From: a virus
Direction: 5' to 3' (one strand)
Length of the DNA: 64,000 nucleotides
IMG/VR virus record: IMGVR_UViG_3300036832_001295
Location: 1-64,000 of that record
This document shows, in pieces, positions 4,632-59,263 of the stretch (within the stretch, counting starts at the first letter, position 1; each line of letters begins with the position of its first letter). The notes below the pieces were generated by a model. The model saw nothing but the letters and a program-made list of their open reading frames with translations. It was not told where the DNA came from and did no database searches. The position numbers and the translations under genes are program-made.

Positions 4632-7600
4632 TCACTCCCCGGACAGGGCATCGCCGAGCAGAACCAGCGACAGATCCAGGTCGTCGTCACGTTGGGCCGC
4701 CTCCCGGCGCAGCGGTGCCTGCCCGGCCAGCGACGGCACGGTGCGTGCCTGACCGGCCGAACGGGGCACCGCACGCCGCGGCGGTGGCTGCCCCTGACGC
4801 TTGGCCGCGGCCTTCGCCACCTTGTTCAGGGTGCCGATCTCGGCGTTGATGGCCGCAATGTCGGTGCTGTTGGCGATCTTCTGGGCGAGCGCCAGGTCTT
4901 CCTCGCCGTCGGCGTAGCCCGCCGCGATCTGCAACCGGGCCAGCCGCAACGCGGCCATGAAGCGCAGCTGGGTGTCCTCGCCGCCATCCAACGAGCCGGT
5001 GCGCTGCGCCTGCCCGAACGGACCACCGAGCGGGAACGCGACCTGCGAGTTCATCGTGTTCCCCGCCCGCACGTCCACCTCGGTCTTGGTCTCGCGCAGC
5101 GGCCGGGGCCCCTGGGTGCCGTCGATCGGGCGGGTCACGTCGACCAGCTGCTTGACCGCCGGGGAGGGCAGGTCCTGGCCGGGGGTGTAGGCGGTGGTGA
5201 CCGCGTCGGCGGCCACATCCTGGTTGACGCCGGGCACCATGCCGGGGGCGTTGACGTCGGCGAAGGCCTCCGGCTCCAACGCGTCCGGGGTGGACTGGCT
5301 GGGCGGCTCCGGGCGGGGTTCGATGACCGGCTGAGCGGGGTTCTGCTCGTCGGCGTGCTTGCGGACCATGGCGGTGCGGACCAGCGTGTCGACGTCCGGG
5401 CCCAGGTGCATGGCGATGGCTTGCAAACCGGCGGTGAGCCGCTGGATCTGGCTGTCCTTGACGCTCAATCGGCGTTGCAGCTTCAGGTTCTCCCGCTGCT
5501 GGTGCTCGACCAGTTCCTGTAGCTCGGCCAGCGCCGCGAGTGCGTGCTGCATGTCGAACTCCTTCACAGAGGCTCGGTACTTAGCGGCGGCGGACTTCTT
5601 GGGGACAGGGCGCTTGGCCGGTGGGGTTTGTGCCTGCTCCTCCTCCTCGTCCTCTTCCTCCGGCTCTTCCTCGTCCTCCTCCTCGTCCTCGGGGACCTCC
5701 TCCGGGGTGACGGTGGTCCGGGACGGGATCGGGGAAGTGTCCAACGGGCCTTCCTCGGGGCTGCCTTCCGGTGGCTGTTCCTCCTCACCGGGTTCGGGTT
5801 CTTCCTCCTCGCCCTGGCCGGTGGCCTCCAACAGCCCCTTGTTGCAGTTGGGGCACACATCACCCTCGGCGGGGCCTTCCGGTTGCCCGCCCTCGGTGGT
5901 CGGTGCGCCGGACTCGTACTCCATCCCGCACACCGGGCAACCCAACGTGGACGGGCCGCCCTCCCCGGCGACCTGCGCCTGCACGTCCTCGGTGTCCCCG
6001 GCCTCGAAGTCGGCTCCCTTGCGGGACGGGTCGACGTCGAGCAGCGCGTCATCGACCGACCGTTTCAATTCGTCAAGGTGTCGGGCCTTGTCCACATCCG
6101 GGTCACCCAGCGCCTTCGGTGGCGCGAGGTAACCGCAGACCAGGCATTCCCGGCCGTCGAAGGCGGTGTCGTTGCCGCAGATCGCGCACCGCTCGTCACG
6201 CAGCGTGTCGACGTCTTGTGGGGCTTTTGTCTCGTTATAGGCCAACGCCTGCACCATCGCGGCGGAGGTCAGCGAGGAGGTGGGCAACGCCCCGACGATC
6301 GCGTCGGCGGTCTTGCGGCCATGGTGGTGGGAAAGCAGGTCGTGCAGCTTGGACTTGTTGGTCGCCGCCAGCCCCTGCTTGGACCGCAACCGGGTGGTCA
6401 CGGTGCGCCGGGTCTCGTTCTCATCGGCGGCCTGCCGCTGCTGCCCGGCGTACCACCAGCCTGCTTGCAGGTGGTCGGAACGGTACTTGCGACGGTCCTG
6501 CTTGCCGATCATGTCGTGCGCGGTGCGGGCCACCGACTGGGCGGCCTCGTAGCCGCCCTTGTTGCCCAGCTGCGAGGAGATGTGGTGGTACCAGGCGTAG
6601 TCGGGCATGTTGCCGGACCCTGCCGCGTAGGTCTGCCGGTCCATGACGTACCGCTTCTCTCCCTGGTCGCCGGAGTTGGCGATGTGCCGGTGGAAGTCGG
6701 AGAACTTGTTCGACCTGATCACCTCGGTGGGTTCGGCCCCGTCCAGCAGCCGCCGGATCTGGCCGCGGGCCGCGCCGTTGAGGTGGTAGCCGCCGCCCGC
6801 GTAGTCCTTGCCGTACGGGTCGTCGGAGACGGCGATGGCGTGCGCGGTCGCCTTCTGCTGGTGGTATTCGGTCCCGGCCGAGGAGATCGTGTTGATGGCG
6901 TTGAGGGTGAGCGGGTGGATGGGGTGGAATCCCTGCTCGGTGCGGGCCCGGTTGATGTGCTTGGTCTCGCTGGCCAGCGTGTCGTGTTCCTTGGCGTACC
7001 AGACCTTCGCGTGTGCCTTCTGCGCCCGGCTCAACCCGTTCCAGGAGGTCACGAACTTCTCCGCGCTCAACGGGTTGGCCGCCGACCAGCGTTTGGCCTG
7101 CCCCTGGATGTAGCCGTGCTGGGCGGCGTGCTGGACCTGCTCGGTCCGCGGCAGCGTCTCGGTGATCTTCTTGCTGGGGGCCTTGTAGAACATCGGCTGC
7201 CCGTCCGGGTGCTCGTTGTTCTCGCCGTGGCTGCGGTAGACGCTACGCACGTTGGCCAGGTGTGCGTCGAACTCTTCCTCGCTCATCTTGGTAGTCCGCC
7301 GTCGGGCCACCGGCAGGTCAGGCAGAGTGTTCATCGGTGGTGCTTCGGCCTTGCTGGCCCCCTGCCGCCGGTCCAGGTCCCGCATCCGGGCCCGGTCGGC
7401 GTAGCTCATCGGCTCGATCTCGGGGTGGTTGAAGGACATGTACTCCGCGCCGTTGTCCCGTACCCACTTGTGCAGGCCACGTTCGAGGTGGTGCTGGCCG
7501 AACCGGTCCCGGTTGGCAGCGGCCTCGCTGGAAGACATCGCGTCGGAGTAGCCGGGCAACGGCGGTGAGTCGACCGGCTGGTCGCCCTCGTAGATGTGGT

Positions 7601-9053
7601 ACCGGTTGCCGCCGGTCCATTCGGCCCGGTAGCCGGAGGGGTGTTCGGCGAACATCCGCCGTTCCATCCCGGCCCGGTGCCGCTGCTGCCACCGCCGGAT
7701 GCGGGGGTCGTGTTGTTCCAGGTGGGCGGCGTACCCGCCGGTCTCTTCCGGGTCGCCGTTGACCCAGTGGTGCAGATCCTGTTCGGCTTCGGCCGGTCCG
7801 TAACCGGGCATCCGATGCTGGTTGCGGGTCTCCCGATCGTAATGCTGCAAATCAATCAAATCGTGTGATTCGTCACCGGTCGCTTGGTGCCGAATCTCCA
7901 AATGCGGCCCGGAATGGTCAATGGCATACCAACCGCGCGGGCCTTCGATATGCGCGTACGGGTGATCGTCATCGTCAGGGTCGAACTTGATGTGGTGCGG
8001 CTGGTATCCCAATCCCTGAAGATCATTCATAACCCCGATATTGCGGGTGGACTTACGGCTCTCCGGGGTGCTGCCCGGATCCATGACCTGGTGGAAGCCC
8101 TCCCACAGCCGCTCACCCATCTCCCGGCCCTTGGCCTTGTCGGCGGCGATCTGCTCCGGGGTCTTGGGCTTGTCGTTGCCTTGGAACCAGGGGTCGTCGT
8201 CACCCTGCCGGTGGTAGGGGTTGATACCGTTTGAAGCGGTATATTGAAGCGGCAAGGTCGAGGCGTGGCTGGGCGTGGTGAGGCGCGGCCTGGCATGACG
8301 AGGCGTGGCGAGGCTGGCAAGATTCGTTGCAGGTCGTTCACTAAGAACGGCCTCCAACGAAGCCACCTTCTGCTGTAGATGTTCCAATCCAGGACCCAGT
8401 ACCGGCCGGTCCAGGAAGTAGGCGGTCGGATCTGCCGGAGGTTCAACAAGCAGTGAATTCTCGAAGAAGGACAGGCCACTGCAAATTTCGAATACCAACA
8501 CGTCTTCGAACCGGCCGTCCGGGTTGCGCCGCCTGATCCGTTTGCCCTTCTTGCCGGGAATATGTGCACAGTATTCGAGCGGGGTGGTGGCCTTGTTGCC
8601 GCAGAACGAGCAGGTGGATATCGCCACATCGGTGCCCATGGAAGTCCGGTCGATATCACCATTGAGAATGGCCTGGGCCAGCTTCGGGAACCGGATCGCG
8701 TCGATTTCCATCAAACATTCGCACCAGGTATCCGGGGAGCCGTCCGGGTTGCGGTCCCGGTGCAGGGCCGCGTCGATGACCACCCCGCGGGCGTGCCGGT
8801 GGTCCTCGTTGACGTGATTGACGAACACCGGACGGCCGATGAACGTCTGGTAGGACTTGGCGATCTCCTCGGCCGGGAAGCAGTCCCAGTTGTCGTTGGT
8901 GCGCGAGGAGATGGCCCGCGACCGGACGTAGAGGTAACCCTCCCGGGGCACGTAGTGGAACACCGCCCGGTGCGCGTCCTTGGCCAAGCCGGGGATCGCC
9001 CCGCTGGCCGCGGCCAGCACCTGCGCCGCACCGAACCGTCGGAACACCGGCAC
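4632..9053 (-). CDS. capsid maturation protease / scaffold fusion with inserted modules
   Basis: N-terminal YLYVRSRAISSRTNDNWD...FIGRPVFVNH...TSMGTDV..CSFC..FFENSLLVEPPADPTA protease-type region; CxxC zinc ribbons, acidic linker and coiled-coil C-terminus. Confidence 0.8.
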   Translation of the reverse strand: MPVFRRFGAAQVLAAASGAIPGLAKDAHRAVFHYVPREGYLYVRSRAISSRTNDNWDCFPAEEIAKSYQTFIGRPVFVNHVNEDHRHARGVVIDAALHRDRNPDGSPDTWCECLMEIDAIRFPKLAQAILNGDIDRTSMGTDVAISTCSFCGNKATTPLEYCAHIPGKKGKRIRRRNPDGRFEDVLVFEICSGLSFFENSLLVEPPADPTAYFLDRPVLGPGLEHLQQKVASLEAVLSERPATNLASLATPRHARPRLTTPSHASTLPLQYTASNGINPYHRQGDDDPWFQGNDKPKTPEQIAADKAKGREMGERLWEGFHQVMDPGSTPESRKSTRNIGVMNDLQGLGYQPHHIKFDPDDDDHPYAHIEGPRGWYAIDHSGPHLEIRHQATGDESHDLIDLQHYDRETRNQHRMPGYGPAEAEQDLHHWVNGDPEETGGYAAHLEQHDPRIRRWQQRHRAGMERRMFAEHPSGYRAEWTGGNRYHIYEGDQPVDSPPLPGYSDAMSSSEAAANRDRFGQHHLERGLHKWVRDNGAEYMSFNHPEIEPMSYADRARMRDLDRRQGASKAEAPPMNTLPDLPVARRRTTKMSEEEFDAHLANVRSVYRSHGENNEHPDGQPMFYKAPSKKITETLPRTEQVQHAAQHGYIQGQAKRWSAANPLSAEKFVTSWNGLSRAQKAHAKVWYAKEHDTLASETKHINRARTEQGFHPIHPLTLNAINTISSAGTEYHQQKATAHAIAVSDDPYGKDYAGGGYHLNGAARGQIRRLLDGAEPTEVIRSNKFSDFHRHIANSGDQGEKRYVMDRQTYAAGSGNMPDYAWYHHISSQLGNKGGYEAAQSVARTAHDMIGKQDRRKYRSDHLQAGWWYAGQQRQAADENETRRTVTTRLRSKQGLAATNKSKLHDLLSHHHGRKTADAIVGALPTSSLTSAAMVQALAYNETKAPQDVDTLRDERCAICGNDTAFDGRECLVCGYLAPPKALGDPDVDKARHLDELKRSVDDALLDVDPSRKGADFEAGDTEDVQAQVAGEGGPSTLGCPVCGMEYESGAPTTEGGQPEGPAEGDVCPNCNKGLLEATGQGEEEEPEPGEEEQPPEGSPEEGPLDTSPIPSRTTVTPEEVPEDEEEDEEEPEEEDEEEEQAQTPPAKRPVPKKSAAAKYRASVKEFDMQHALAALAELQELVEHQQRENLKLQRRLSVKDSQIQRLTAGLQAIAMHLGPDVDTLVRTAMVRKHADEQNPAQPVIEPRPEPPSQSTPDALEPEAFADVNAPGMVPGVNQDVAADAVTTAYTPGQDLPSPAVKQLVDVTRPIDGTQGPRPLRETKTEVDVRAGNTMNSQVAFPLGGPFGQAQRTGSLDGGEDTQLRFMAALRLARLQIAAGYADGEEDLALAQKIANSTDIAAINAEIGTLNKVAKAAAKRQGQPPPRRAVPRSAGQARTVPSLAGQAPLRREAAQRDDDLDLSLVLLGDALSGE

Positions 9054-9100
9054 CTCCTCCGCCCGTGACTTCGCGGGCGTAGTCGCCGGTCAGGCAGAAC

Positions 9101-9304
9101 TCAACGGATGAACTGGCCGGTGATGTCGCTGCGGTAACCGTCCGGTGCGGCCTGGTTCACCTTCTCCCCGGCCCGGCGGTGCACCCGCACGTAACGGATC
9201 GCGCGGGCCCGACTCAGCCCCTCGATCGCCAGCCGTTCCCCGTGCAACACCGCCCAGGAGCCGTCCTGATGAGGTTCCAGCGTCCAGGCCATCAACCGCC
9301 TCAT
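9101..9304 (-). CDS. hypothetical protein
   Basis: 67 aa; ATGA overlap with the upstream gene. Confidence 0.55.
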   Translation of the reverse strand: MRRLMAWTLEPHQDGSWAVLHGERLAIEGLSRARAIRYVRVHRRAGEKVNQAAPDGYRSDITGQFIR

Positions 9305-12300
9305 AGGAACAGCGTCTCGTCCTCCAACGAATGCTCCCCGTCATCGAGCAGATGCTCGTAGTGGGTGCCCTGCACCTGCAGGTCGGTGAAGTTACGGGCC
9401 CGGCCGGTCAGGTTCTCGTTGATCAGCGCCTGCTGCTCGGCGAAGGTGAAGTCCTTCCCGGCCGCCTTCTGCAACACGGTGCGGGCCGCAGCGGCGATCT
9501 GCGCATCGGAGTACTCCGCCCCGGCCCGTGACCCACCCGAGCCGTTCATCGCCCGCTGCCGTTCGCTCTGCGGCGGCGGCGGGGCATCGTGCATCAGTGC
9601 CTGCCCGCCGGAGGTCGCCCAGAACGCGGCGACCACCGGGTCGACCGCACCCTGGATGCGCAACGCGTCGTTGTTGTCGGTGTCGTCGGTCAGGCCCCGG
9701 TCGTCGCCTTCCGGGATGAACGGCGGGCTGTCCTCCGGGTAGCCCCACGGCTGCTCACGCATCGTCTCGATACCGGGCTGCGCGGCATGCTCGACCTGCT
9801 GCTCCGGTCCCGGTTCGCCGATCTCCTCGGTCGTCCCGTCGGTGGACGGCAACGCCGGTTCCGGTTCCTCGTTCAAGGTGGACACCACGTCGAACCCGGC
9901 CCCGCGCAGCCGCCGGTTGCGCTCGATCTGATAGTTGGTGTCGTAGGCGGTGCCTGGTTCGGCCCCCAGTTCGGCCAGCTGGTCGTAGTGGCTGTGCAGA
10001 TGGGTGCTGGTGGACCCGTCGGCGTCCATGTGGTGGCAGGGCACCTTGGTTTGCAGCTGCTGCCGGGCACTGAACGGGCCCTCGAAGGCGTGGCTGCCGT
10101 CACGCCGCTCGTAGGGCCGGTAGGCCCCGCCGTCCGGGCCCAGGTAGATGCTGACACGGCTGATGCCGTGCTTGTACCGGCTCAGCACCGAGGACTGCGG
10201 CTGGCCTTCGTGAAAGGTGGTGCCCGGGTTGTTCTCCATGAACATCCAGCCGTGGTGCTCGGCCGGGGGGATGTCAGAGCGGTGCAGCGGCTCCCAGTTC
10301 ACCGCATACTTCACATCGTCCTGGTGCGCCGCGGCCTCCTGCTCGCGGGCCTGGTCCAGGGAGCGTTGCACGTCCAGGACCGGCGGGGACTCGCCTTCGG
10401 GGTGGGTGGCGGCCTGCTTGCCCCACTTCTGGCCCTGCGACTCCCGGCCCTCCTGGTAACCCTGCGCGTACCGGGTGGCGCGGATGTAGCCGCCCTCACC
10501 CTGTTCGTAGTCGGGCAGCTGGTAGGGCTGGTCGTCAATGGCGTGCGTGAACCCGATCTTCCAGTCCGGGTCGGTGGCCTTCTCCCGCGGGCTCTCCAAC
10601 GCGGCGGTTGTATCGCTCAGCTGCTCATATGTCGGCCCGACCCCGTTACCCCTCACCGATGTGACCGGAGTCACACTCGCCGCCTTCTTGATCTCGTCCC
10701 AGGGGGTGGATTTCACCTCCCGGCGCAACGCCGGGTTGGCCTTCGCGTGCTGAATTGTCCACCAGGCGGCCTGCTCATGGTCGTCGCCGTCCGGGTCGTC
10801 CGGGTTGAGGGTGGCCCGGCCGTCCTTGAAGGAGACCGCCGATTCTTCCGGGACGTGAACCATGTGCAGCACGTAATTGCGATTGCGATGCACACCGGTC
10901 AGATGCCCGCCGGGCGGGAAGGCCTGGCCGACTTCTTCTTCCCATTCGCGGATCGCACCGTGCAGCGAGGTCTGGTCGCCGTCCTCCAACTTGCCGCCGG
11001 GGAATTCCCAAGTGCCCGCGGCCGGGTCGTCCGGATCATGATTACTGCGTTGGATCATCAGGACCCGACCGGTATCGCCCGCCTTCAAACACAGACCGGC
11101 ATGAGTCGGAGGATCGCTTTGGGGCGATCCTCCGTTACTCGCTTGCCTGCCTTGCCATGCCTCGCCCAGCCCAGACGCGCCATGCCTGACCTCGCCGACA
11201 TCATCATAACCGTTTGAAACGGCTTCCCCGTGCGCCGCCGCGTCCCAATGGGTGAACCCGGAGGACACCGCCGAATCCGACCAGTTACCCGGGTCGGCGG
11301 AGGTCGCCCAACCGATGGAAGCCGGGTTCGGTGAGTCCGAATGCGGGGTAGTCGACTGGTACAGCTGCGCCGGGTTGCCGGGCATCAGCGAGTAGTTGTC
11401 GTAGCTGGCGGTGTGCAGGCTGGCGCTGGTCGCCCCGATCGGGTCGGACTGCTGCATGTCCCCGGCGTCCGGGCTCTCATCGCCGACCGGGTCGGTGGTG
11501 GCGGACAGGTCACCGGGCCCGCCCCCGGCCGCGTCGGTGGGGGCCGCCCCGACCTGCACCTGGCCGGTGCCGCCGCAGTGCCCGCAGCCGGAGCCCTCAC
11601 ACTGCGGACACCACACGTAGTTGCCGCCCCACGGCATCCCGTACCCCCAGTCCGGGGCGTGCATCCGGGTGTCGTTGGTGTGGTGCAGCAGGTGCTTCTT
11701 CTTCTGTTTCGCGTCCGACTGGTCCCGTTCGTCCAACCGCGGGATGTCGGTGCCGGGTTCGGCGGCCCCACCCATCGGGTCGGTGGTGGCCTCCTCCTCA
11801 TCGTCATCCTCGTTCTCGTCGTCGTCCTTCTTGGCGGCGAAATGCACCATCCCGGCCGGAACCACCCGACCGTCGGCCAGGGTGCAATCCCCGCCTGGTT
11901 CGACATGCACTAACCGGGCCACCACGCCGTCCACCAGCACGGTCGCGGCGGTCTCGGAGGCAACCGCCCAGGTCAACGACTCCCTGGCGGCCTGGTGGGT
12001 CATTCCCGTGGCCCTGAGGGCCGTCAGGGCCTCCGCCGGGGAGGTCCCTGCGGCCAGTGCCAGCCTGGCCCACTCGTGCGCCGGGGTTAGCTCCGGCTCG
12101 ACCAGGCTGCCCTTGATCCGGACCCGGGAGCGCGGTGTCCACTCGGTGCGCACATTGCCCGGCGGCACGGTACGGCGGGTCAAACCCCGGCCGGGGGCAT
12201 GTTCGGTGGGCCGTTGGTATTCGGTCTGTATCGGGCTGCGTTGGTACTGGCCGGGTAGCCGTTCGGTGTCCGGTTCGACCTCGCGGCCGAACATGCCCTT

Positions 12301-33002: not shown

Positions 33003-33650
33003 ATGACCGCAGCACCTACTGCTGCTCTGCACATCCCACGCATCAACGTGGAGACCCTGCTGGTGCCGATCCTCGGGACCAGCCCGCTGCTCGTGCACCA
33101 GTGGTCCCAGAAGGCCAAGCTGCAGATGCTCAACGCGCAGCAGGGCATCAAGACCATCAAGGAACCCCGCGACCCGCAGTCGGAGTACGAGGCCAGCCTG
33201 TACCGGGCCGGGGACGACGGCTACGGCATCCCGTCGGTCGCCTTCAAGGCGGCCACCGTGTCCGCGGCCCGCGTCTACGGCAAGGCGGTCCGGATGACCG
33301 AACTGCGCCAGTTCCTGTTCTTCCGCGGCAAGATGTACAAGGGCAACAACGGCAAGTTCAGCTGCAACCAACAGCTGTTCCTGCTCGACGGCACCCCGCA
33401 GATGCGCGAAGACATGGTCACCGTCGGCATCTCCGGCACCGACCTGCGCTACCGGGGCGAGTTCACCGAGTGGTCGACCACGCTGACCGTCGAGTACATC
33501 AAGTCCTCGATCACCAAGGAGTCGGTGCTCGGCATCATCGAGGCGGCCGGAACCACCGTCGGGGTCGGCGAGTGGCGGCCGGAGAAGGACGGCGAGTTCG
33601 GCACCTTCAAGCTCGACCCGTCCCGTGAGGTGCAGGTCATCTCGGCATGA
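33003..33650 (+). CDS. RAMP/Cas7-like protein, putative effector of the GGY-NN repeat system
   Basis: 215 aa from ATG 33003 with strong RBS; RAMP-like layout ILGTSPLLVH, YGIPSVAFKAA and C-terminal G-rich loop GVGEWRPEKDGEFGTF. Confidence 0.8.
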   Translation: MTAAPTAALHIPRINVETLLVPILGTSPLLVHQWSQKAKLQMLNAQQGIKTIKEPRDPQSEYEASLYRAGDDGYGIPSVAFKAATVSAARVYGKAVRMTELRQFLFFRGKMYKGNNGKFSCNQQLFLLDGTPQMREDMVTVGISGTDLRYRGEFTEWSTTLTVEYIKSSITKESVLGIIEAAGTTVGVGEWRPEKDGEFGTFKLDPSREVQVISA

Positions 33651-34015
33651 GCGGCGACCCGCAGCAGTGGTTGCGGACGGAGTTGAAGGGGGTGCGCGTC
33701 CGGCAGGGCGCGCTCACCCCGGCCACGTTGCTGGCTGACGTGACCCAGACCGGCCCGACGCATCCGCTCTATGACCGGTTCCTGTGGTCGGTGGACACGC
33801 CGCAGGACAAGGCCCAACTGGCCCGCATGCTGATCCACGAGGCCCATCCGGAGCAGGCCTGCCGCCAGGCCACCCTGGACGAGGTACAGGCCGGGTTCGC
33901 CCGGCTGGGGTTTTCCACCGGCAGCTTGCAGACCAACTACCACCGTGAGGACCACATTCTGTTCACGGTGGACGACGCACAGCGGCTGCTGGCCGCATTA
34001 GGGGGACAGTCATGA
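33647..34015 (+). CDS. accessory protein, divergent paralog of 34012..34467
   Basis: ATGA-coupled; GALTPATLLA...HPLYDRFLW. Confidence 0.75.
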   Translation: MSGDPQQWLRTELKGVRVRQGALTPATLLADVTQTGPTHPLYDRFLWSVDTPQDKAQLARMLIHEAHPEQACRQATLDEVQAGFARLGFSTGSLQTNYHREDHILFTVDDAQRLLAALGGQS

Positions 34016-34467
34016 GCTTCTCCGCCTACGAGGCGCAGCGGGAACTGATCACGCAGCTGGAAGAGGTTCGCGAACACCGCGGCGAACTGACCCCGCAGGC
34101 GGTGTTGGCCGAGGTCGAGGAGACCGGCAAGCGGCACCCGCTCTACGACCGGTTCGAGTGGAACAACCGGGTCGCCGGGCACGGCTACCGCCTCGACCAG
34201 GCGCACCGGCTGATCATGTCCGTGAAGGTGATCTTCCGGGGACCGACCGACGAGGAACGCAAGATCCGCAAGTACGTCGCGGTGCCGCAGCCGATGGCCC
34301 ACCAACCCAACTACGAGCCGATCGAGGACGTCGCGATGGACGACCTGAAACGCAAGCTGGTGCTGCAGGACGCGGAACGGCGCTGGAAGGCGTTGCGGAC
34401 CCAGTTCGGCCACCTGCAGGAGTTCATCGACCTGGTGCTGGGCGACCTGAACGGCAAGGCCAGCTGA
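34012..34467 (+). CDS. accessory protein of the RAMP-like operon
   Basis: ATGA-coupled; GELTPQAVLA...HPLYDRFEWNN...YRLDQAHRLI. Confidence 0.8.
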   Translation: MSFSAYEAQRELITQLEEVREHRGELTPQAVLAEVEETGKRHPLYDRFEWNNRVAGHGYRLDQAHRLIMSVKVIFRGPTDEERKIRKYVAVPQPMAHQPNYEPIEDVAMDDLKRKLVLQDAERRWKALRTQFGHLQEFIDLVLGDLNGKAS

Positions 34468-34470
34468 GCT

Positions 34471-34554
34471 AAACACGCTCGGCCAGGTGCCGATCGTGTT
34501 TGTCGAGATCCGGGATGCCCAACCGCGGGGGAGGGAGCATCCCGGATCTTCGGC
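34471..34554 (+). other. two stem-loops forming the array leader
   Basis: AAACACGcTCGGC-caggt-GCCGAtCGTGTTT (34471-34501) and GATCCGGGATGC...GCATCCCGGATC (within 34502-34554). Confidence 0.7.
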
Positions 34555-34561
34555 GTCTGCG

Positions 34562-34957
34562 GGCAGGGCTTGGTTCGGCACGGTTCGGCACGGCAGGGCT
34601 GGGCAGGCACGGCAAGGCTGGGCCCGTCGAGGTTCGGCGTGGCAAGGCCCGGCAGGCCAGGCAGGGTGTGGCACGGCACGTCGTGGCGGGGTTCGGCAGG
34701 GCTGGGCAGGCAAGGCGAGGCACGGCATGGCACGGCCTGGCGCGGCCGGGCAGGCAAGGCGTGGATGGCCCGGCGGGACGTGGCAAGGCGGGGCAGGCAC
34801 GGCTTGGTTGGGCACGGCAGGGCTAGGTTCGGCATGGCGGGGCAGGCAGGGCTTGGTGCGGCCAGGCGCGGTTGGGGTTGGCGCGGTGCGGCGGGGCAGG
34901 CGTGGCACGGCTTGTCATGGCTGGGCAGGGCTGGTCTTGGCGCGGCGTGGCAGGCTG
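34562..34957 (+). repeat. GGY-NN pentamer array 1 (putative guide ncRNA, about 8 units)
   Basis: period-5 GGC/GGT plus a variable dinucleotide, interrupted every 8-10 pentamers by GGCA. Confidence 0.9.
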
Positions 34958-34999: not shown

Positions 35000-35446
35000 A
35001 TGAAGATTCATACGCTGTTGGCGTTGGCCGCGGCCGGGGTGTGCACCGCCGGAATGGTGGTCTTCGCGGCACCGGCCTCGGCGGCGCAGTCGGAGTTGAC
35101 CCTCAACTGCACCGGCCTCGGCATGGTGACGGTGGCGACCAACAACAACAACTCATCCGAGCACGGTGGTTGGGGCGCGGCGCAGACCGTGAACATTCCC
35201 GGGCACGGTATCGCGACCTCGTTCTCCGGCACGATTACCGACCTGGTGACCGGCACCAGCGTGAGCTTCACCCAGGTCAAGGGCAACGGCAACGCCAACC
35301 AGAACACCACCGGGCAACCCACCATGTGCTCACAGACGATCACCGGCACGGTGGTCGACTTCACCGGGGGGTTCATCCCGCCGGGCATGTCGGGCTCTGA
35401 CCCGGCCACCTTCATGCTCACGGTGGGCGTGATTTACAAGGCCTGA
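35000..35446 (+). CDS. secreted protein embedded between the two arrays
   Basis: 148 aa; Sec signal MKIHTLLALAAAG...AAPASA-A; two Cys in the mature part; GC3-rich codons. Confidence 0.8.
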   Translation: MKIHTLLALAAAGVCTAGMVVFAAPASAAQSELTLNCTGLGMVTVATNNNNSSEHGGWGAAQTVNIPGHGIATSFSGTITDLVTGTSVSFTQVKGNGNANQNTTGQPTMCSQTITGTVVDFTGGFIPPGMSGSDPATFMLTVGVIYKA

Positions 35447-35449
35447 CTC

Positions 35450-38300
35450 GGCAGGCAGGGCTTGGCGGGGCATGGTTCGGCGCGGCATGGCACGGTGTGG
35501 CAGCCAGGGCACGGCGCGGCACGGCACGGCCTGGCTCGGCGCGGCAGGCGCGGCGCGGCGCGGCGGGGTCGGGCCCGGCCTGGTGCGGCGAGACATGGCG
35601 CGGCGAGGCAGGCATGGTGTGGCTCGGCCTGGCTCGGCAAGGCAGGGCAGGCACGGCATGGTTGGGCTCGGCGCGGTTGGGCGTCGCAGGGCTTGGCAGG
35701 CAGGGCGAGGTGTGGCGGGTCCAGGCATGGCGCGGCAGGCATGGCCCGGCGCGGCTCGGTACGGCAAGGTGGGGCGTGGCAGGCGGGGTTGGGTTCGGTT
35801 TGGCATGGCGCGGTTGGGCACGGCACGGCTCGGCAGGCGTGGCTTGGCGTGTCGAGGCGGGGCTGGGTTCGCTGGGCCAGGCGGGGCAGGGCAGGCGTGG
35901 CTGGGCGGGTTCCGGCAAGGCAAGGCATGGCCAGGCAGGCACGGCCCGGTTCGGTATGGCACGTCGTGGCCAGACTTGGCTTGGCAGGCGTGGCTTGGTG
36001 TGGCACGGCCGGGTCAGGCACGGTTGGGCGCGGCAGGCTCGGCGAGGCGTGTCATGGCAAGGCTCGGCTAGGTAGGGCACGGCAGCCGAGGCCTGGTGAG
36101 GCAGGGCAACGCGAGGCATGGCTAGGCCCGGCAGTCGGGGCGTGGCATGACCCGGTGTGGCAGGTCACGGCAAGGCGTGGCGCGGCAGGCACGGCTAGGT
36201 CGGGCGCGGATCGGCGTGGCATGGCGTGGCAGCTAAGGCGCGGCGGGGCACGGCACGGCTGGCTAGGCAAGGCTCGGCCCGGTGCGGCATGGCAGGTCAG
36301 GGCAGGCGTGGCAGGGTGCGGCAGGGTCAGGCGCGGCAGGGCTAGGCGGGGCTTGGCAGGCAAACGTGGTTTAGCTGGGCCCGGCGTGCCGGGGCACGGT
36401 GGGGCGTGGCAGGCAGAGCAAGGCTCGGCTTGGTTCGGCGTGGCATGGCAGGCAGGGCTAGGCAAGGTATGACAAGGCTGGGTGCGGCATGGCGTGGCTG
36501 GCATTCGTGGTTTGGCTGGGCGGGCCGCGGCGGGGCAGGCAAGGCATGGCTTGGCATCGCATGGTGTGGCTCGGCTAGGCGCGGCAGGGCAGGCAGGCGA
36601 GGCCGGGCAGGCAGGGCTGGATTCGGCCGGGCATGGCTTGGCGCGGTTTGGCAGGCAAGGCAGGCATGGTGAGGCACGGCAGGGCACGGCGCGGCTAGGC
36701 GCGGCAGGCGAGGCAGGGCCCGGCTAGTCCAGGTGCGGCGGGTCGCGGCCGGGTTCGGCAGGGCAGGCTCGGTTGGGCTGGGCGGGGCGTGGTTTGGCAA
36801 GGCAGGGTTGGGCACGGCAGGCAGGCAGGGCGTGGTTGGGCTCGGGCGGCTGGGCACGGCAGGGCAGGCACGGCGGGTCCGGGCGAGGCTCGGCAAGGTC
36901 CGGCCTGGCGGGGTAGGGCCTGGCAGGCGAGGCGGGGTGTGGCGGGGCCTGGCGGGTCAAGGCACGTCATGGCGCGGCAGGCATGGCGAGGCAGGGCTTG
37001 GTCCGGCAGGGCACGTCCCGGCTTGGCTTGGCAGGCTCGGCCAGGCGCGGTTGGGCGAGGCATGGCAAGGCAGGGCTCGGCCAGGCAGGCATGGCCCGGC
37101 GAGACCCGGCTCGGCTCGGTGCGGCATGGCGCGGCATGGCAGGCAGGGCGCGGCGCGGCCAGGCGAGGCCGGGCTTGGCTCGGTCCGGCCTGGCGAGGCG
37201 AGGCAGGCATGGCCCGGTATGGCACGGTGCGGCACGTCCCGGCGTGGTATGGCAGCCGAGGCCCGGCTTAGCGTGGCAGGTCTTGGCGAGGCCTGGTGTG
37301 GCACGGCAAGGCAGGGCGTGGCAGGCATCGCGTGGTGTGGCACGGCCCGGTGGGGCACGGCTTGGCAGGCATCGCACGGCGCGGCATGGCAGGTCGAGGC
37401 AAAGCCTGGCGGGCACGGCAGGCATGGCCCGGTCCGGTTCGGCACCGCACGGCGGGGCATGGCAGGCATGGTTCGGCTTGGCGTGGTGTGGTGGGGCACG
37501 GCAGGGCACGGCAGGCAGGGCTCGGCGTGGTTCGGCACGGCACGGTGTGGCGTGGCTTGGCGGGCAGGGCTCGGCCGGGTTGGGTACGGCGTGGTCAGGC
37601 GAGGCGCGGCGCGGTGTGGCAGGCAGGGCTCGGTACGGCGGGGCATGGCAGGGTGTGGCTAGGCCCGGCGGGCATGGCATGGCGCGGCAAGTCCAGGCGA
37701 GGCGCGGCGAGGCGTGGCGAGGCGAGGCGAGGCAGGCAAGGCAAGGTCGGGCAGGGCACGGTATGGCCCGGTGTGGTTGGCATGGCGCGGCATGGCAGGC
37801 AGGGCGCGGCAGGCTGGGCTCGGCACGGCTAGGCGCGGCTCGGCAAGGCGTGGTGGGGCAGCCGGGGCTGGGCGAGTTGGGCATGGCCGGGCGCGGCGTG
37901 GCAGTCCAGGCAGGGCAGGACGAGGCAGGGCTAGGCGCGGCTTGGCAGGGCAGGCTTGGCCCGGCGGGGCATGGTTGGGCTAGTCAAGGTCGGGCATGGC
38001 AGGCAGGGCAGGGCTTGGCCCGGCAACGCAGGGCTTGGCCCGGCGCGGCAGGCACGGCAGGGTTAGGCGGGGCGGGGTCCGGCTAGGCCTGGCAGGCAAG
38101 GCGGGGCAGGTCCCGGCTTGGTTGGGCACGGCTCGGCGCGGCAGGCGTGGCAGAGTTCGGCGAGGCTAGGCGTGGCAAGGCCCGGCTAGGCAGCCACGGC
38201 GGGGCCTGGCCAGGCATGGCAAGGTGAGGTGCGGCGCGGCATGGCAGGCGTGGCTTGGCGTGGCACCGTGTGGCCACGCGTGGCACGGCACGGCAGGCTC
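35450..38300 (+). repeat. GGY-NN pentamer array 2 (putative guide ncRNA, roughly 55-60 units by hand estimate)
   Basis: about 2.85 kb of period-5 GGY-NN with GGCA (occasionally GGCT/GGCG) punctuation; strong G skew; no coherent ORF. Confidence 0.92.
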
Positions 38301-39314: not shown

Positions 39315-39557
39315 TCAGCCCACACCGTCACCGGGCAGGGCAACCGTAACCCGGCCTCCCGTTATCCACTGCCCCCAGACCGACCTGATCCGGGGACCGG
39401 GCGGCGGCAGCACCGGCACCTCGACGTTGACCAGCGCCCGGCAGCACCGGCAGCGGTACTCCCGGTAGGCGGCACCATCCAGCGTGATGCAGGACCGCTC
39501 GTCACTGTCCAGGTCCTGCTGCCCGCAGTTCGGGCAGACCGCGCCGATCTCACACAT
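39315..39557 (-). CDS. small Cys-rich zinc-ribbon protein
   Basis: CPNCG...CRCC; GTG start overlapping the portal end. Confidence 0.5.
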   Translation of the reverse strand: MCEIGAVCPNCGQQDLDSDERSCITLDGAAYREYRCRCCRALVNVEVPVLPPPGPRIRSVWGQWITGGRVTVALPGDGVG

Positions 39558-42375
39558 CCTCTTCCTCTTCCTCCTCGTCGCCGTAATGGGTGTCCCCGGC
39601 CAGCTTCGGCACCGCGGAGGTGTCCAGATACTTGCGCATTCCGTACACCTTCGGGTCCCCGAAACGCCCGGTCGGCCGGTAATGGGTCGGGTCGTCTTCC
39701 TCGGAGTTGTCCGGGGCGATCCAGTGCCGTTTGGTGACCACGCTGATGCCGAAGCGCTGCCCCGGCTGGTACCCGGCCAGCTTGCTCAGCTTGGCCGCCT
39801 TCTTCCGGGGCCGTTTGCCGTCCTTGTTGTCCTTCGGCGCGTCCTCGCGCTCCTCGTCGGACTCCTCCGGGCCGGACTCCTGGCCGGGCATCGGGGCGGG
39901 CAACCCCAACGCCGGGTTGCCGACCGGCGGGGCGTTGATGTCGCCTTGCTCGGCCATCATCGCCTGCTCCGGGTCCGGCGACATCACCGGGTTGTCGTCC
40001 ACCCCCATGCCCAGCGAAGGCACCGCCGCGTCGTTGGCGTTGTAGACCGGCGAGGGCTGGCTGCCCGCCTCGATCGCCTTCGGGGCGAAGTCGGCGGCCA
40101 GGTCCGCCGGGATCGGGTAGCCCTCCCGTTGCAGGGACTGGAAGATCTTGCGGCGGGTGTCCTGCTCGGCGACCGCCAGGGCCACCGCCTCCTCGCTACG
40201 CTGCTCGATGGCCTCGTTGAACTCGATGCCGGTGGTGGACAGCCGCTGCTTGTACGGGATCGGCACCCCGGCCGCGGCGAGGGTCTCCACGAACTGCCGC
40301 TCGGTCTCCTCATCGGAGATGTTCAGCGTCTTGAAGGTCAGCCGCGGGATCAGCAGCTTGGGCTGTTCGATGATGCGTTCCTCGCCGGACTCCTCGTCTA
40401 TCTCATAGATCTCCTCGGTGATCAGGTACCGTTTCCCGCCGCGCACCTCGTAGTCGAAATGCTCCTGCGCCTCGGCGACGATCGCGGCCCGGTCGAAGAC
40501 GAACTTGGCCAGCATCCGCTGGTAGTGGGTCAGCAGCTGGGTGACCACATCCCTGTTCAAGGCATCCGCGGCGTAGGTCTCCCCGGCCTGCGCGCCGGTC
40601 AGCATCGTCTGAGACAGCCCGAACACCATCAAGATCCGTTCGGTGATCCGGTCGAAGTCGTTGGACAGGTCCGGCACGTTCTCCCGGCCGAAGACCGGCT
40701 GCATGTCGATCGCCCAGTGGTAGGTCAGCACCCGGAAATCGGCGGCCAGCGCCGCGTCCAGGGAGGCGTTGAACTCCTCCATGTCCTCCTGAGTGGGGAT
40801 CCACGGGGTGCCGGTGCCCAGGTCCTGCGCGGTCGCGCCCAGCTTGGTCAGGATCAGCGGGGTGTAGAGCCGATCGGCGATGGAGTCCAGCGCGGAGTTC
40901 AGCATCTCCTCCTGGATGATCATCCGGAAGGCCCGCATCAGCAGCGGGATGCCACGGTTAGAAAACCGGTCGGCCTTGAACCGCAGCTGCTTCAGGATGA
41001 TGTTGGAGACGGGCATCAGCGCGTCTTCCTGGGCGTAGTTCAGCAGTTCCGGGAACTGCCGGACCAGCTGCGTGTACTGCCAGTGCGGGGTGCGGCTGGT
41101 GAGCACCTTGCGCAGCGACTCGGGCAGCCGCATCAGGTACCGCGGGTCGTTCAGGAACAGCGACTTCTCGATCTCCACGTCATCCGGGTTGATCAGTTCG
41201 TCGGCTTCCCAGACGCCCAGCGTGTCGTTCCAGCCGCCCAGCGCCCAGGACTCGCCGGACAACCAGTACTCGGTGCCCAGGTCGAGCAGGAAGTCCTCGA
41301 AGTTCAGCTGGTCGAAGAACAGGTCGGAGTAGAAGTCGATCAGCTGCTGGTCCTGGCATTCGAAGGCCATGCCCTGCATCGGCAGCTTGGAGTAGACGTC
41401 GATGCAGGCCGGGATCACCGGGTGGGTGACGTAAAGCAGGCGGCAGTTCTTGGACTGGTAGCCCCAGGCGACGTAGTTGCCGGTGCTGGTCTGCATGCTG
41501 ATCACGGTGGCGGTGCCCGCGTCGGTAACCGAGAGCACCTTGTCCGGCCCGCCGTGCGGCAGGGTGTACCAGCGCCCGACCGCGTTCATCCCGGACTCCA
41601 CCGAAGACAGCCCGAACAGTTCGTCGCCTTCGTTGGCGACGAAGTACTCGGTAGTGATCTTGCCGGTGTCGATCGGGTGACCGCGCAGGTCGACCTGCTG
41701 ACGGCCGAACCACGGGTTGAACCAGCGGTGGTCGGGGGTGCAGGTGATGACCTGGCCGGAGGCCATGGTCAGCTTCACCACCGGCACGTCATCGCGGGAC
41801 AGAGTGGCCAGCACGGTGGCCGGGAGGTAGTGCACGCCCAGCCCGCCGTTGCTGTGCAGCGTGTACTTCCAGCCCTGCACCGCATCGCCGGGGGTGATCT
41901 CACCCAGCGGTTTGGAGGTGCCGTCGGCCATCAGGATCGGCGCGTCCGGGGTATTGCAGAACTCCCGGATCCGTTCCAACTCGACCGGGTCGGTGAAGTT
42001 GAAGGGCAGGTTGTTCTGCCGCCAGTACCACATCGGGTCACGCGGGCGGGCGGTGGCGATCTGCATCGAGCCACCGGTCCCGTAGGCCGCGGTGCGGCGC
42101 ATCGACGTGCCGACCGCCCGGGAGCCGCTCAGCCGGTTGTTGATGGTGCGCTCGGGCAGGTGCGGGGCCCCGAACGGCAACCCGGCAGGGGTGCGCTGGT
42201 CGGACTCGCGGACCCGCCGGGTCGCGACCCGGCGCGGCGACGCGATGTTGGCTCCGGTGCCGGGCAGGTCCGGCAGCGGCACCCGGCGGCCCCGCCGGTC
42301 GGTCACGGAAAAGTCGGCCACGTTACTTCGCGGCCCCAGCCGGGTGACGGGCAGCGGGTCGCCCGCTAGGTTCAC
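39550..42375 (-). CDS. portal protein (Bxz1-like) containing an intein; exact start uncertain
   Basis: RPRDPMWYW, IDVYSKLP, RGIPLLMRAFR, IADRLYTPLIL.KLG and ALAADFR recognised from cluster C portals. Confidence 0.88.
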   Translation of the reverse strand: MNLAGDPLPVTRLGPRSNVADFSVTDRRGRRVPLPDLPGTGANIASPRRVATRRVRESDQRTPAGLPFGAPHLPERTINNRLSGSRAVGTSMRRTAAYGTGGSMQIATARPRDPMWYWRQNNLPFNFTDPVELERIREFCNTPDAPILMADGTSKPLGEITPGDAVQGWKYTLHSNGGLGVHYLPATVLATLSRDDVPVVKLTMASGQVITCTPDHRWFNPWFGRQQVDLRGHPIDTGKITTEYFVANEGDELFGLSSVESGMNAVGRWYTLPHGGPDKVLSVTDAGTATVISMQTSTGNYVAWGYQSKNCRLLYVTHPVIPACIDVYSKLPMQGMAFECQDQQLIDFYSDLFFDQLNFEDFLLDLGTEYWLSGESWALGGWNDTLGVWEADELINPDDVEIEKSLFLNDPRYLMRLPESLRKVLTSRTPHWQYTQLVRQFPELLNYAQEDALMPVSNIILKQLRFKADRFSNRGIPLLMRAFRMIIQEEMLNSALDSIADRLYTPLILTKLGATAQDLGTGTPWIPTQEDMEEFNASLDAALAADFRVLTYHWAIDMQPVFGRENVPDLSNDFDRITERILMVFGLSQTMLTGAQAGETYAADALNRDVVTQLLTHYQRMLAKFVFDRAAIVAEAQEHFDYEVRGGKRYLITEEIYEIDEESGEERIIEQPKLLIPRLTFKTLNISDEETERQFVETLAAAGVPIPYKQRLSTTGIEFNEAIEQRSEEAVALAVAEQDTRRKIFQSLQREGYPIPADLAADFAPKAIEAGSQPSPVYNANDAAVPSLGMGVDDNPVMSPDPEQAMMAEQGDINAPPVGNPALGLPAPMPGQESGPEESDEEREDAPKDNKDGKRPRKKAAKLSKLAGYQPGQRFGISVVTKRHWIAPDNSEEDDPTHYRPTGRFGDPKVYGMRKYLDTSAVPKLAGDTHYGDEEEEEEDV
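41446..41958 (-). mobile_element. mini-intein (171 aa, no endonuclease) in the portal
   Basis: starts CNTPDAPILMADG, block B CTPDHRW, ends TGNYVAWGYQSKN followed by +1 Cys; removal gives RIREF-CRLLYVTH. Confidence 0.88.
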
Positions 42376-59144: not shown

Positions 59145-59263
59145 ACCTGGGTCACCTGAAGTTTGGGGGCTGCCGCCCCGCCCGTACGGCCGAACGTGGC
59201 CTGCGCGCCATGTCAAGACGCAGGGTGCCCCACGCTCTACGGGGCGGCAGCCGGTCTGTGGGG

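What the first reader, a model, noticed from the sequence alone, without database searches (positions are those of the whole stretch)
36926..36975. Sense-orientation unit decodes to the SNF2 helicase Walker A motif DGVGLGKTIA
Seen: NN = GA GG GT GG CT GG AA AC AT GC, read forward D-G-V-G-L-G-K-T-I-A. Known: AD(D/E/G)VGLGKT is motif I of SNF2-type helicases such as DISARM DrmD and RM-associated helicases. Because this one reads in sense while most read antisense, the target is more plausibly double-stranded DNA than mRNA (inference).
Basis: partly seen in the sequence, partly recalled or inferred. Interest (0 to 1): 0.8.

Follow-up and report, generated by a model that had tools for sequence, protein, structure and literature searches.

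The report
VIPR guide matching SNF2 helicase motif
This 50-base stretch is one guide in an unusually large phage VIPR guide-RNA array, and its variable bases spell the conserved ATP-binding motif of SNF2-type (DISARM-like) helicase genes, although no exact natural target was found.

Summary
36926-36975 is ten GGY-NN pentamers flanked by GGCA, with NN = GA GG GT GG CT GG AA AC AT GC.

It is not numerology. The stretch lies in a 3.24 kb VIPR array, a system described in 2026 bioRxiv preprints. The gene at 33003-33650 is a Vipr homologue, matching PDB 36pp "SUSP1 Vipr protein" at E 5.5e-14. In VIPR the NN dinucleotides pair with double-stranded DNA while skipping every third base, usually the codon wobble.

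The SNF2 target itself is only partly supported:
- No exact match in IMG/VR or in the phage's own record.
- With up to 2 mismatches, 68 places in 57 of 401 Mycobacteriales-order genomes, against 3 control places; 59 of the 68 read VGLGKT.
- The best match (19 of 20 bases) lies in a decayed DrmD-like gene.
- The only exact match, one metagenome contig, lies in a LytS-type histidine kinase.

Verdict: a new member of a known kind, with its target unresolved. The scan's earlier notes concern this same genome.

The parts
33003..33650 (+). vipr gene (215 aa), a RAMP-type Vipr homologue
   Evidence: Translation. PHROG 4652, function unknown. An 80-sequence profile hits PDB 36pp_D 'SUSP1 Vipr protein' at E 5.5e-14, and the single sequence hits it at E 7e-7. 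In that alignment R151 and E190-W191-R192 align to SUSP1 R138 and D177-W178-R179, the residues that contact GGY. The family sits next to arrays in 134 of 208 array loci, always on the array's G-rich strand.
33647..34015 (+). small gene (122 aa), a paralogue of the next gene and a candidate vap
   Evidence: Translation. It shares the 'HPLYDRF.W' stretch with the next gene (by eye). No Pfam, NCBIfam or PHROG hit.
34012..34467 (+). candidate vipr-accessory gene (vap-like, 151 aa)
   Evidence: PHROG 15946, function unknown, E 2.9e-22. Its family lies beside arrays in 101 of 208 loci, on the same strand.
34506..34549 (+). 13-bp inverted repeat (hairpin) between the vap-like gene and the first array
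   Evidence: Read directly (AGATCCGGGATGC ... GCATCCCGGATCT). Its role was not tested.
34567..34957 (+). VIPR array block 1 (71 pentamers, 9 tetramer junctions)
   Evidence: Parse.
35000..35446 (+). 148-aa ORF with a signal-peptide-like N terminus, lying between the two array blocks
   Evidence: Sequence. No family hit. Whether it belongs to the system is unknown.
35450..38300 (+). VIPR array block 2 (515 pentamers, 69 tetramer junctions)
   Evidence: No Rfam family matches it.
36922..36925 (+). GGCA junction upstream of the unit
   Evidence: It fits the 'staggered arrays ... 1 nt overlapping' legend of fig. S18. The figure itself was not seen.
36926..36975 (+). the finding: one guide tract of ten GGY-NN repeats, with NN = GA GG GT GG CT GG AA AC AT GC
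   Evidence: Target searches.
36976..36979 (+). GGCA junction downstream of the unit

Best explanation
The 50 bases are the repeat tract of one guide (vrRNA) in a very large 'staggered' VIPR array of a soil actinophage.

Shown:
- The array has the published VIPR make-up of GGY-NN pentamers in runs of about 9-10.
- A Vipr homologue and a conserved accessory gene lie just upstream on the same strand.

Taken from the preprints:
- Vipr protomers polymerise along the RNA, one per pentamer, and hold each GGY.
- They present the NN pairs to double-stranded DNA, pairing two bases and skipping the third.
- The bound complex represses transcription.

Inferred here:
- Under that rule the unit specifies GA.GG.GT.GG.CT.GG.AA.AC.AT.GC, that is codons [DE]GVGLG[KN]T[IM]A.
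- The gene class that fits best is motif I of SNF2-family helicases, and DrmD-like (DISARM) genes give the closest matches.
- The unit would then silence such a helicase gene in the host or in a rival mobile element.

My odds are about 0.9 that this is a VIPR guide unit and about 0.55 that its natural target is an SNF2-family motif I site.
For: System:
- Run lengths peak at 8-11 pentamers.
- The Vipr family sits beside 134 of 208 array loci on the same strand.
- The Vipr profile hits PDB 36pp at E 5.5e-14, and the GGY-contacting residues are conserved.
- Between related contigs the GGY core differs at 4-12% of positions, while NN differs at 46-48% and the flanks at 11% (12 pairs). This is the hypervariable-NN pattern the preprint describes.
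- The preprint's fig. S18 legend describes staggered arrays with a 1-nt overlap.

Target:
- 68 places in 57 of 401 genomes match with 2 or fewer mismatches, against 3 for the pattern read backwards. 59 of the 68 read VGLGKT in the printed strings.
- Five places in a Gordonia MAG match, against 0 control places.
- The best hit, 19 of 20 bases, lies in an ORF matching PADLOC DrmD at 1.7e-38.
- Sampled 8/10 hits are DrmD (3e-276), DpdE (1.5e-262) and PbeA-like (3.9e-50).
- Five IMG/VR sites match 9/10, three of them in SNF2-rel_dom ORFs and one of those DrmD-like at 1.4e-93.
- All of these reach the preprint's working criterion of at least 80% NN match.
- There is no self-match with 3 or fewer mismatches and no SNF2 gene in the phage's own 85.7 kb record, so the guide would not hit its own genome.
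- Chance expectation for the motif core within the array is about 1e-7.
Against: - No exact SNF2 site was found in IMG/VR (0), in the 401 genomes (best is 1 mismatch) or in the metagenome collection.
- The only exact match (L377) is in a His_kinase plus HATPase_c ORF.
- The 19/20 genomic hit lies in a broken DrmD remnant, a 120-aa ORF followed by a frame change, and not in a working gene.
- One of the five 9/10 viral hits is in a tape measure gene.
- Two of the ten cores are GTC rather than GGY. In SUSP1 Vipr the second G is specifically held, so assembly on this unit is uncertain.
- None of 736 units from 244 other array loci resembles VGLGKT[IM] at 6 of 7 or better, so SNF2 motif I is not a recurrent VIPR target in that sample.
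- Published natural targets are satellites, prophages and other VIPR loci. The preprints' main texts name no SNF2 or anti-defence target.
- Staggered arrays were not among the architectures the preprint confirmed by sRNA-seq.
- Expression, processing and binding of this unit are untested.
- Matches of 80-90% to a very conserved motif are what any motif-like string would give. They do not identify a particular target.
Confidence: 0.55

Rival explanations
1. It is a genuine VIPR unit, but its real target is an unsampled, unrelated gene, or the unit is a decaying, non-functional repeat. The likeness to SNF2 motif I is then coincidence picked out by a reader scanning for any familiar motif.
For: - No exact target was found in any collection searched.
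- Four unflagged 10-pentamer units also have 0 exact IMG/VR matches each, so targets of this array are generally unsampled.
- Most of the 75 decoded runs look like random peptides.
- Two of the ten cores are non-GGY.
- No similar unit occurs among 736 units from other arrays.
- 736 units against 4.2 Mb of local DNA gave 6 near-perfect hits, against 11 for reversed controls.
Against: - Eight informative positions match a single well-defined motif, with about 1e-7 windows expected and 0 of 3000 shuffles reaching 7 of 8.
- Genomic hits outnumber control hits 68 to 3.
- Neighbouring units also decode to motif-like strings. That those strings are real motifs is my recollection and was not tested here.
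Confidence: 0.3
2. The target is the ATP-lid (G2-box) region of a LytS-type sensor histidine kinase gene, with the NN read as E-G-V-G-L-G-N-T-I-A.
For: The only 20/20 match in any collection is L377:646-674. It is in frame in an ORF with Pfam His_kinase (2.2e-24) and HATPase_c (4.8e-9), reading REGVGLGNTIARL.
Against: - It is one hit in a collection of 241 million records. My rough estimate, assuming roughly 500 Gb of sequence (a size no call gave) and uniform base use, is about one exact match to 20 fixed bases by chance.
- None of the 68 hits with 2 or fewer mismatches in 401 Mycobacteriales-order genomes reads GLGN.
- The contig shows no phage or defence context in the ORFs I looked at.
Confidence: 0.07
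3. The unit acts on mRNA rather than on DNA.
For: The structural preprint reports that the Vipr-vrRNA complex can pair with a single-stranded RNA target in vitro.
Against: - With RNA, most complexes stalled as 7-subunit intermediates and no triplex formed.
- Silencing worked on either DNA strand, and dsDNA binding was specific.
- A sense-reading unit cannot pair with the mRNA of the gene it spells.
Confidence: 0.04
4. There is no code at all. The region is a simple G-rich satellite, or a protein-binding or Rho-loading repeat, and the decoding is apophenia. This was my own starting view.
For: - The array has a 5-nt period, strong GC skew and no long ORF.
- Nothing was found in Rfam or in my first two literature searches.
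Against: - The architecture is conserved in phages with GC content from 0.39 to 0.73.
- The array is tightly linked to a Vipr homologue.
- The code has been shown experimentally in published work.
Confidence: 0.02

Closest known systems
VIPR (Viral Interference Programmable Repeat) systems, type II of Escherichia phage SUSP1 and a Pseudomonas fulva prophage (bioRxiv 10.64898/2026.04.26.720920 and .720927)
   Same: - A roughly 20 kDa Vipr RAMP protein with a conserved thumb Arg and a G-loop acid-Trp-Arg.
- An adjacent small accessory gene.
- Guides built of GGY-NN pentamers in tracts of 9-16.
- Hypervariable NN.
- Targets predicted in coding DNA, with the skipped base at the wobble position.
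   Different: - No conserved 3' tail or pseudoknot separates the guides here. Units are separated only by a 4-nt GGCA.
- About 58-75 units in 3.24 kb, against four vrRNAs in SUSP1.
- The hosts are actinobacterial.
- The Vipr protein is only distantly similar, with the single-sequence match covering only residues 146-203.
- Nothing about this locus has been tested experimentally.
'Staggered vrRNA arrays' named in the same preprint (fig. S18 legend, seen as text only)
   Same: Back-to-back vrRNAs with boundaries offset by one nucleotide. This matches the one-base-short GGCA junctions here.
   Different: I could not see the figure or the supplementary tables. The preprint does not list this architecture among those confirmed by sRNA-seq. 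The array sizes it reports are unknown to me.
Vipr homologues in cultured actinophages: Gordonia phages Ecliptus, ODay, Pipp and UmaThurman (55-58% identity), and Mycobacterium phages such as Donkeykong and Brocalys (41%)
   Same: The same protein family, annotated as 'hypothetical protein'. In Ecliptus the gp19-gp20 intergenic region holds GGCA-punctuated pentamers.
   Different: The Ecliptus array is roughly 220 nt by eye. My detector, which is stringent, scored only 100 nt of it. Those phages have genomes of 50-60 kb. The window's portal gene instead resembles those of cluster-C-type Mycobacterium and Rhodococcus E3 phages of about 150 kb.
Class 1 CRISPR crRNA bound by a Cas7 backbone
   Same: RAMP subunits polymerise on a guide and their thumbs interrupt pairing periodically (as stated).
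   Different: - Pairing is 2 of every 5 guide bases against 2 of every 3 target bases, not 5 of 6.
- There are no CRISPR repeats, no Cas1/Cas2 and no PAM.

Membership tests
VIPR system | A Vipr protein (a minimal RAMP with G-loop and thumb) encoded at the locus | tested here: met
   Profile A1 hits PDB 36pp_D 'SUSP1 Vipr protein' at E 5.5e-14, and the single sequence hits it at E 7e-7. R151, E190, W191 and R192 align with SUSP1 R138, D177, W178 and R179.
VIPR system | Guide tracts of tandem GGY-NN (YNNGG) pentamers, 9-16 per vrRNA | tested here: met
   There are 586 pentamers and 89% have GGY cores. Run lengths peak at 9, and 58 of 75 runs have 7-13 pentamers. The unit in question has 10.
VIPR system | GGY conserved and NN hypervariable between related loci | tested here: met
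   Over 12 related contig pairs, the core differs at 4.4%, 5.2% and 11.5% of positions, NN at 46.0% and 48.3%, and the flanks at 11.4%. This was measured on other loci. No close relative of this phage was found, the best Vipr identity being 57%. Some array alignments may pair non-orthologous units.
VIPR system | An accessory vap gene next to vipr | tested here: inconclusive
   A conserved family of about 150-170 aa lies beside arrays in 101 of 208 loci, and the window has two paralogues. It could not be matched to vap1-6, because no sequences were available and the supplements were not opened.
VIPR system | Natural targets at 80% NN match or better under the 1-nt skip rule, in frame with the skip at the wobble position, and no self-targeting | tested here: met
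   Matches of 8/10 to 9/10 occur in frame in SNF2-family genes, 68 places against 3 control places in 401 genomes. Viral 9/10 sites are. The phage's own record has 0 matches with 3 or fewer mismatches. An exact SNF2 match was not found.
VIPR system | vrRNA expressed, processed and bound by Vipr, and the RNP binds dsDNA and represses transcription | not testable with these tools
   The only run holding this DNA is the source soil metagenome, and no RNA holder is listed.
VIPR type II (SUSP1 clade) | Each vrRNA ends in a conserved structured 3' tail (a pseudoknot) | tested here: not met
   Units follow each other directly, separated by a 4-nt GGCA. The locus is therefore not filed as type II. It fits the 'staggered' architecture.
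SNF2-family helicase motif I (as the decoded target) | The peptide [DE]xVGLGKT[IM] occurs in frame in genes that carry SNF2-rel_dom | tested here: met
   Six of the 9 ORFs scanned carry PF00176. The other three are a tape measure protein, a histidine kinase and a 120-aa fragment. By PADLOC, 4 of the 6 SNF2 ORFs scanned score best as DrmD (two), DpdE or PbeA. The fragment is DrmD-like.

The most novel reading that the evidence does not exclude
The phage uses VIPR as an anti-defence silencer rather than against rival viruses. This guide would shut off host DISARM-type drmD genes, and other SNF2 defence helicases, by pairing with the codon positions 1-2 of their invariant ATP-binding motif. One guide would then cover many alleles and could not be escaped by synonymous change. 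The roughly 60-guide array as a whole would be a library aimed at catalytic motifs of host immunity genes. The main texts of the three VIPR preprints I searched name only satellites, prophages, other VIPR loci and viruses as targets. Their supplements were not seen.
Probability: 0.25. Interest if true: 0.8.

Novelty: new member of a known kind. Interest (0 to 1): 0.45.

Why it matters
VIPR was described only in 2026 and has been tested in enterobacterial and Pseudomonas systems. This locus extends it in three ways.

First, it places VIPR in a large soil actinophage. Its array is about 13 times the median, and 2.7 times the largest, of 245 other array-bearing loci I measured.

Second, it is a concrete example of the untested 'staggered' array form.

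Third, it offers a guide whose best-fitting target is a universally conserved enzyme motif of defence-type helicases. If that target is real, VIPR would also serve phages as a programmable silencer of host immunity. Motif-directed guides would then explain why skipping the wobble base is useful beyond blocking escape by rival elements.

If the target is not real, the locus is still a rich natural set of guides for working out the targeting rules of staggered arrays.

Tried and rejected
1. My starting view was that the decoding was apophenia and that the array was a satellite, a TRAP-like RNA-binding repeat, a Rho loading site or a pac site. I dropped it after the neighbour-gene clustering, the PDB hit and the preprints.

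2. Rfam found no family. There were two chance hairpin hits at E 0.15 and 0.98. The promoter and terminator scan found 0 promoter-like sites, and 3 terminator-like sites against 1.8 expected.

3. The first literature searches ('pentanucleotide ... phage genomes', 'GGCNN') found nothing relevant. The system surfaced only through the PDB molecule name.

4. Recurrence test. NN 6-mers are shared only between closely related contigs, with none in 3 or more loci. No VGLGKT-like unit occurs in 736 other units. So there is no independent corroboration from other arrays.

5. I tested all 54 window units of 8 or more NN against 4.2 Mb of fetched DNA. Only the SNF2 unit scored high, but that database holds loci fetched with this very pattern, so the result says nothing. 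For 736 foreign units, 6 near-perfect hits against 11 for reversed controls gave no signal.

6. Four unflagged units each had 0 exact matches in IMG/VR.

7. Expression: no RNA holder is listed, only the probable source soil metagenome.

8. Pfam, NCBIfam and PDB sequence searches gave nothing usable for the vap-like genes or the 148-aa ORF.

9. No close relative of this phage was found. The best Vipr identity is 57%, so conservation of this particular unit could not be examined.

10. Supplementary files of the preprints were not opened. Their locus tables, target lists (data S3) and fig. S18 may already cover this clade, the Gordonia phages or SNF2 targets.
Full report
**What is at the coordinates.** One search shows 36926-36975 as ten 5-nt units: GGCGA GGCGG GGTGT GGCGG GGCCT GGCGG GTCAA GGCAC GTCAT GGCGC. 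A GGCA tetramer sits on each side (parse). Read as codon positions 1-2 they give [DE]-G-V-G-L-G-[KN]-T-[IM]-A. So D, K and I are choices among two-fold ambiguities. Two of the ten cores are GTC rather than GGY.

**The surrounding array.**
- The stretch belongs to two blocks of the same repeat on the + strand, 34567-34957 and 35450-38300. A 148-aa ORF with a signal-peptide-like start separates them.
- One search counts 586 pentamers. Of these, 436 have GGC cores and 88 have GGT, which is 89% GGY.
- It also counts 78 tetramers, 68 of them GGCA, and 75 runs between tetramers. 58 of those runs are 7-13 pentamers long, with the mode at 9.
- Tandem Repeats Finder sees the resulting periods of 5k+4: 44, 49, 54 and 64.
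- No long ORF accounts for the region, and Rfam has no family for it.

**Context.**
- The window is part of an 85.7 kb IMG/VR record, 62% complete, from a soil metagenome.
- The portal gene (39550-42375, minus strand) resembles those of Mycobacterium cluster-C-type phages and Rhodococcus phage E3.
- Endolysin genes flank the locus.

**How the identification was reached.**
- I began with the view that the decoding was probably apophenia.
- A pattern for the array form found at least 120 IMG/VR stretches and at least 120 stretches in bacterial genomes and MAGs of many phyla.
- The arrays occur in contigs with GC content from 0.39 to 0.73, so base composition does not explain them.
- I clustered the ORFs near the arrays. 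One family of about 214 aa was present in 134 of 208 array-bearing loci. All 136 members lie on the array's G-rich strand, and 102 of them lie upstream. A second family of about 150-170 aa was present in 101 of 208 loci.
- The window has both families: 33003-33650, and 34012-34467 with a paralogue at 33647-34015.
- Pfam, NCBIfam and PHROGs give no function for them.
- An 80-sequence profile of the first family hit one solved structure, PDB 36pp 'SUSP1 Vipr protein', at E 5.5e-14. The window protein alone hits it at E 7e-7.
- That molecule name led to three 2026 bioRxiv preprints.

**What the preprints say.**
- For 10.64898/2026.04.26.720920 I read the outline, all of Results, the Discussion and three methods sections, plus found passages.
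- It describes VIPR systems as a minimal RAMP protein (Vipr), an accessory gene (vap) and vrRNAs of 9-16 YNNGG repeats. The GGY is conserved and the NN is hypervariable.
- The NN pairs recognise double-stranded DNA with one target base skipped between pairs.
- Inferred natural targets were mostly protein-coding, with the skipped base at the wobble position. They lay on either strand, with no PAM.
- Binding represses transcription. Natural targets were satellites, prophages, other VIPR loci and, for types III and V, viruses.
- The working criterion for a natural target was at least 80% NN match.
- The text names 'staggered arrays with overlapping vrRNAs'. The fig. S18 legend says that neighbouring vrRNAs overlap by 1 nt. 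This fits the one-base-short GGCA junctions here. That architecture is not among those the authors confirmed by sRNA-seq.
- For 10.64898/2026.04.26.720927 I read the outline and the first part of Results. One Vipr protomer binds each repeat. R138, D177, W178 and R179 hold the GGY, and the complex forms an R-loop triplex on dsDNA.
- In one search these residues align with R151, E190, W191 and R192 of the window protein. R151 and R192 are invariant in my alignment.
- For 10.64898/2026.10.15.759431 I saw the outline with abstract and one found passage.

**Independent support from the data in hand.**
- Over 12 pairs of related contigs, the flanks differ at 11.4% of positions (2481 of 21773).
- The three core positions differ at 4.4%, 5.2% and 11.5%, and the two N positions at 46.0% and 48.3%.
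- Some pairs with 93% identical flanks carry wholly different units. One pair shares five units and differs by two extra units at one end.
- Part of the NN divergence may come from aligning non-orthologous units.

**Consequence for the finding.** Its inference of a dsDNA target agrees with the experiments reported, although the sense-against-antisense argument is not what establishes it.

**Is the target an SNF2 gene? Evidence for.**
- Within the array, the core [DE]xVGLG[KN]T[IM] is expected about 1e-7 times from NN composition. 0 of 3000 shuffles reached 7 of 8.
- In 401 genomes of the order that holds the Gordonia MAG with the closest Vipr (60% identity), the full pattern with 2 or fewer mismatches hits 68 places in 57 genomes. 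The pattern read backwards hits 3 (my count of the printed rows).
- 59 of those 68 printed strings read VGLGKT.
- I checked gene families for only four of these places. By PADLOC they are DrmD at 3e-276, DpdE at 1.5e-262, PbeA-like at 3.9e-50, and the single 1-mismatch site.
- That 1-mismatch site reads DGVGLGKTIE. It lies in a 120-aa ORF matching DrmD at 1.7e-38.
109 sites match 8/10 NN and 5 match 9/10.
- Of the five 9/10 sites, three lie in SNF2-rel_dom ORFs, and one of these scores as DrmD at 1.4e-93. One lies in a tape measure gene and one in a 98-aa ORF that I did not scan.
- The phage's own record has no site with 3 or fewer mismatches and no SNF2 gene.

**Is the target an SNF2 gene? 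Evidence against.**
- No exact SNF2 site was found anywhere: 0 in IMG/VR and none in the 401 genomes.
- The one exact hit in the metagenome collection lies in a LytS-type histidine kinase, where the same bases read REGVGLGNTIARL. My rough estimate, which assumes a collection size that no call gave, is that one such hit is about what chance would produce.
- The 19/20 genomic site lies in a decayed gene. The frame breaks about 35 codons downstream, and only DrmD profile positions 85-179 and 260-324 are recognisable. It sits next to a SoFic gene.
- Four unflagged units also lack exact IMG/VR matches, so the targets of this array are simply unsampled.
- No unit resembling this one occurs among 736 units from 244 other array loci.
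- The main texts of the preprints do not mention SNF2 or anti-defence targets. Their supplements were not seen.

**Verdict.**
- The object is one guide tract of a VIPR array, a system already in print, so this is a new member of a known kind.
- I put the SNF2 (DrmD-like) target reading at about 0.55. Whether the gene belongs to host defence or to a rival element is open.
- Two things are new relative to the texts I read. One is the size of the array: 3.24 kb, against a median of 245 nt and a maximum of 1190 nt in 245 other loci. That comparison carries two caveats, truncated loci and a stringent detector. The other is the possibility that a phage VIPR guide is aimed at a conserved catalytic motif of defence helicases.

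**Limits.** There are no expression data.

Noticed in passing
window 37034-37083, 37088-37137 and 35836-35889: Other units decode to strings that I recall as resembling TIR ([CW][DE]L[FL][IM]S[HQ]A..), a GHKL G1 box (..[DE][DE]GSG[IM]) and Vsr (V[FL]V[DE]G[CW].[CW][HQ]G). The decodings were re-derived here. That these strings are real motifs is my recollection and was not tested. The Vsr-like unit contains a one-base-short repeat (GGTT), which would break the register.
   Followed up: partly
window 8252-8316 (+): There is an isolated run of about 12 GGY-NN pentamers ending in GGCT GGCA, 25 kb from the main locus. An AT-richer stretch precedes it, and it lies inside a long minus-strand ORF call (4632-9053). 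It may be a solo vrRNA of the kind the third preprint describes.
   Followed up: partly
window 35000-35446 (+): A 148-aa ORF with a signal-peptide-like N terminus is embedded between the two array blocks. It has no family hit in four libraries.
   Followed up: partly
L458 (Gordonia phage Ecliptus, OP820472) 5610-5870: The intergenic region between gp19 (a Vipr homologue annotated 'hypothetical protein') and gp20 holds an unannotated GGCA-punctuated pentamer array. So cultured Gordonia and Mycobacterium phages carry VIPR loci that could be tested directly.
   Followed up: partly
L231 unit against L082:6939: A 10-NN unit from one contig matches 9/10 inside the vipr gene of another contig. This recalls the VIPR-against-VIPR targeting reported in the preprints. 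However, reversed controls gave as many hits of that quality (11 against 6).
   Followed up: no
L037 about 7180-7230 (minus strand): An array in a contig with GC 0.46 is followed directly by a sequence with a tRNA T-arm look (GGTTCGAATCC).
   Followed up: no
L459 (G079:C1:168000-187900) 7351-11123: A decayed DrmD-like gene (two fragments, frame broken) lies next to a SoFic-type gene (9.2e-83) in a region of lower GC3. It looks like an eroded defence island.
   Followed up: partly
window 59172-59246 (-): tRNA-Val (GAC) gene in the phage.
   Followed up: no
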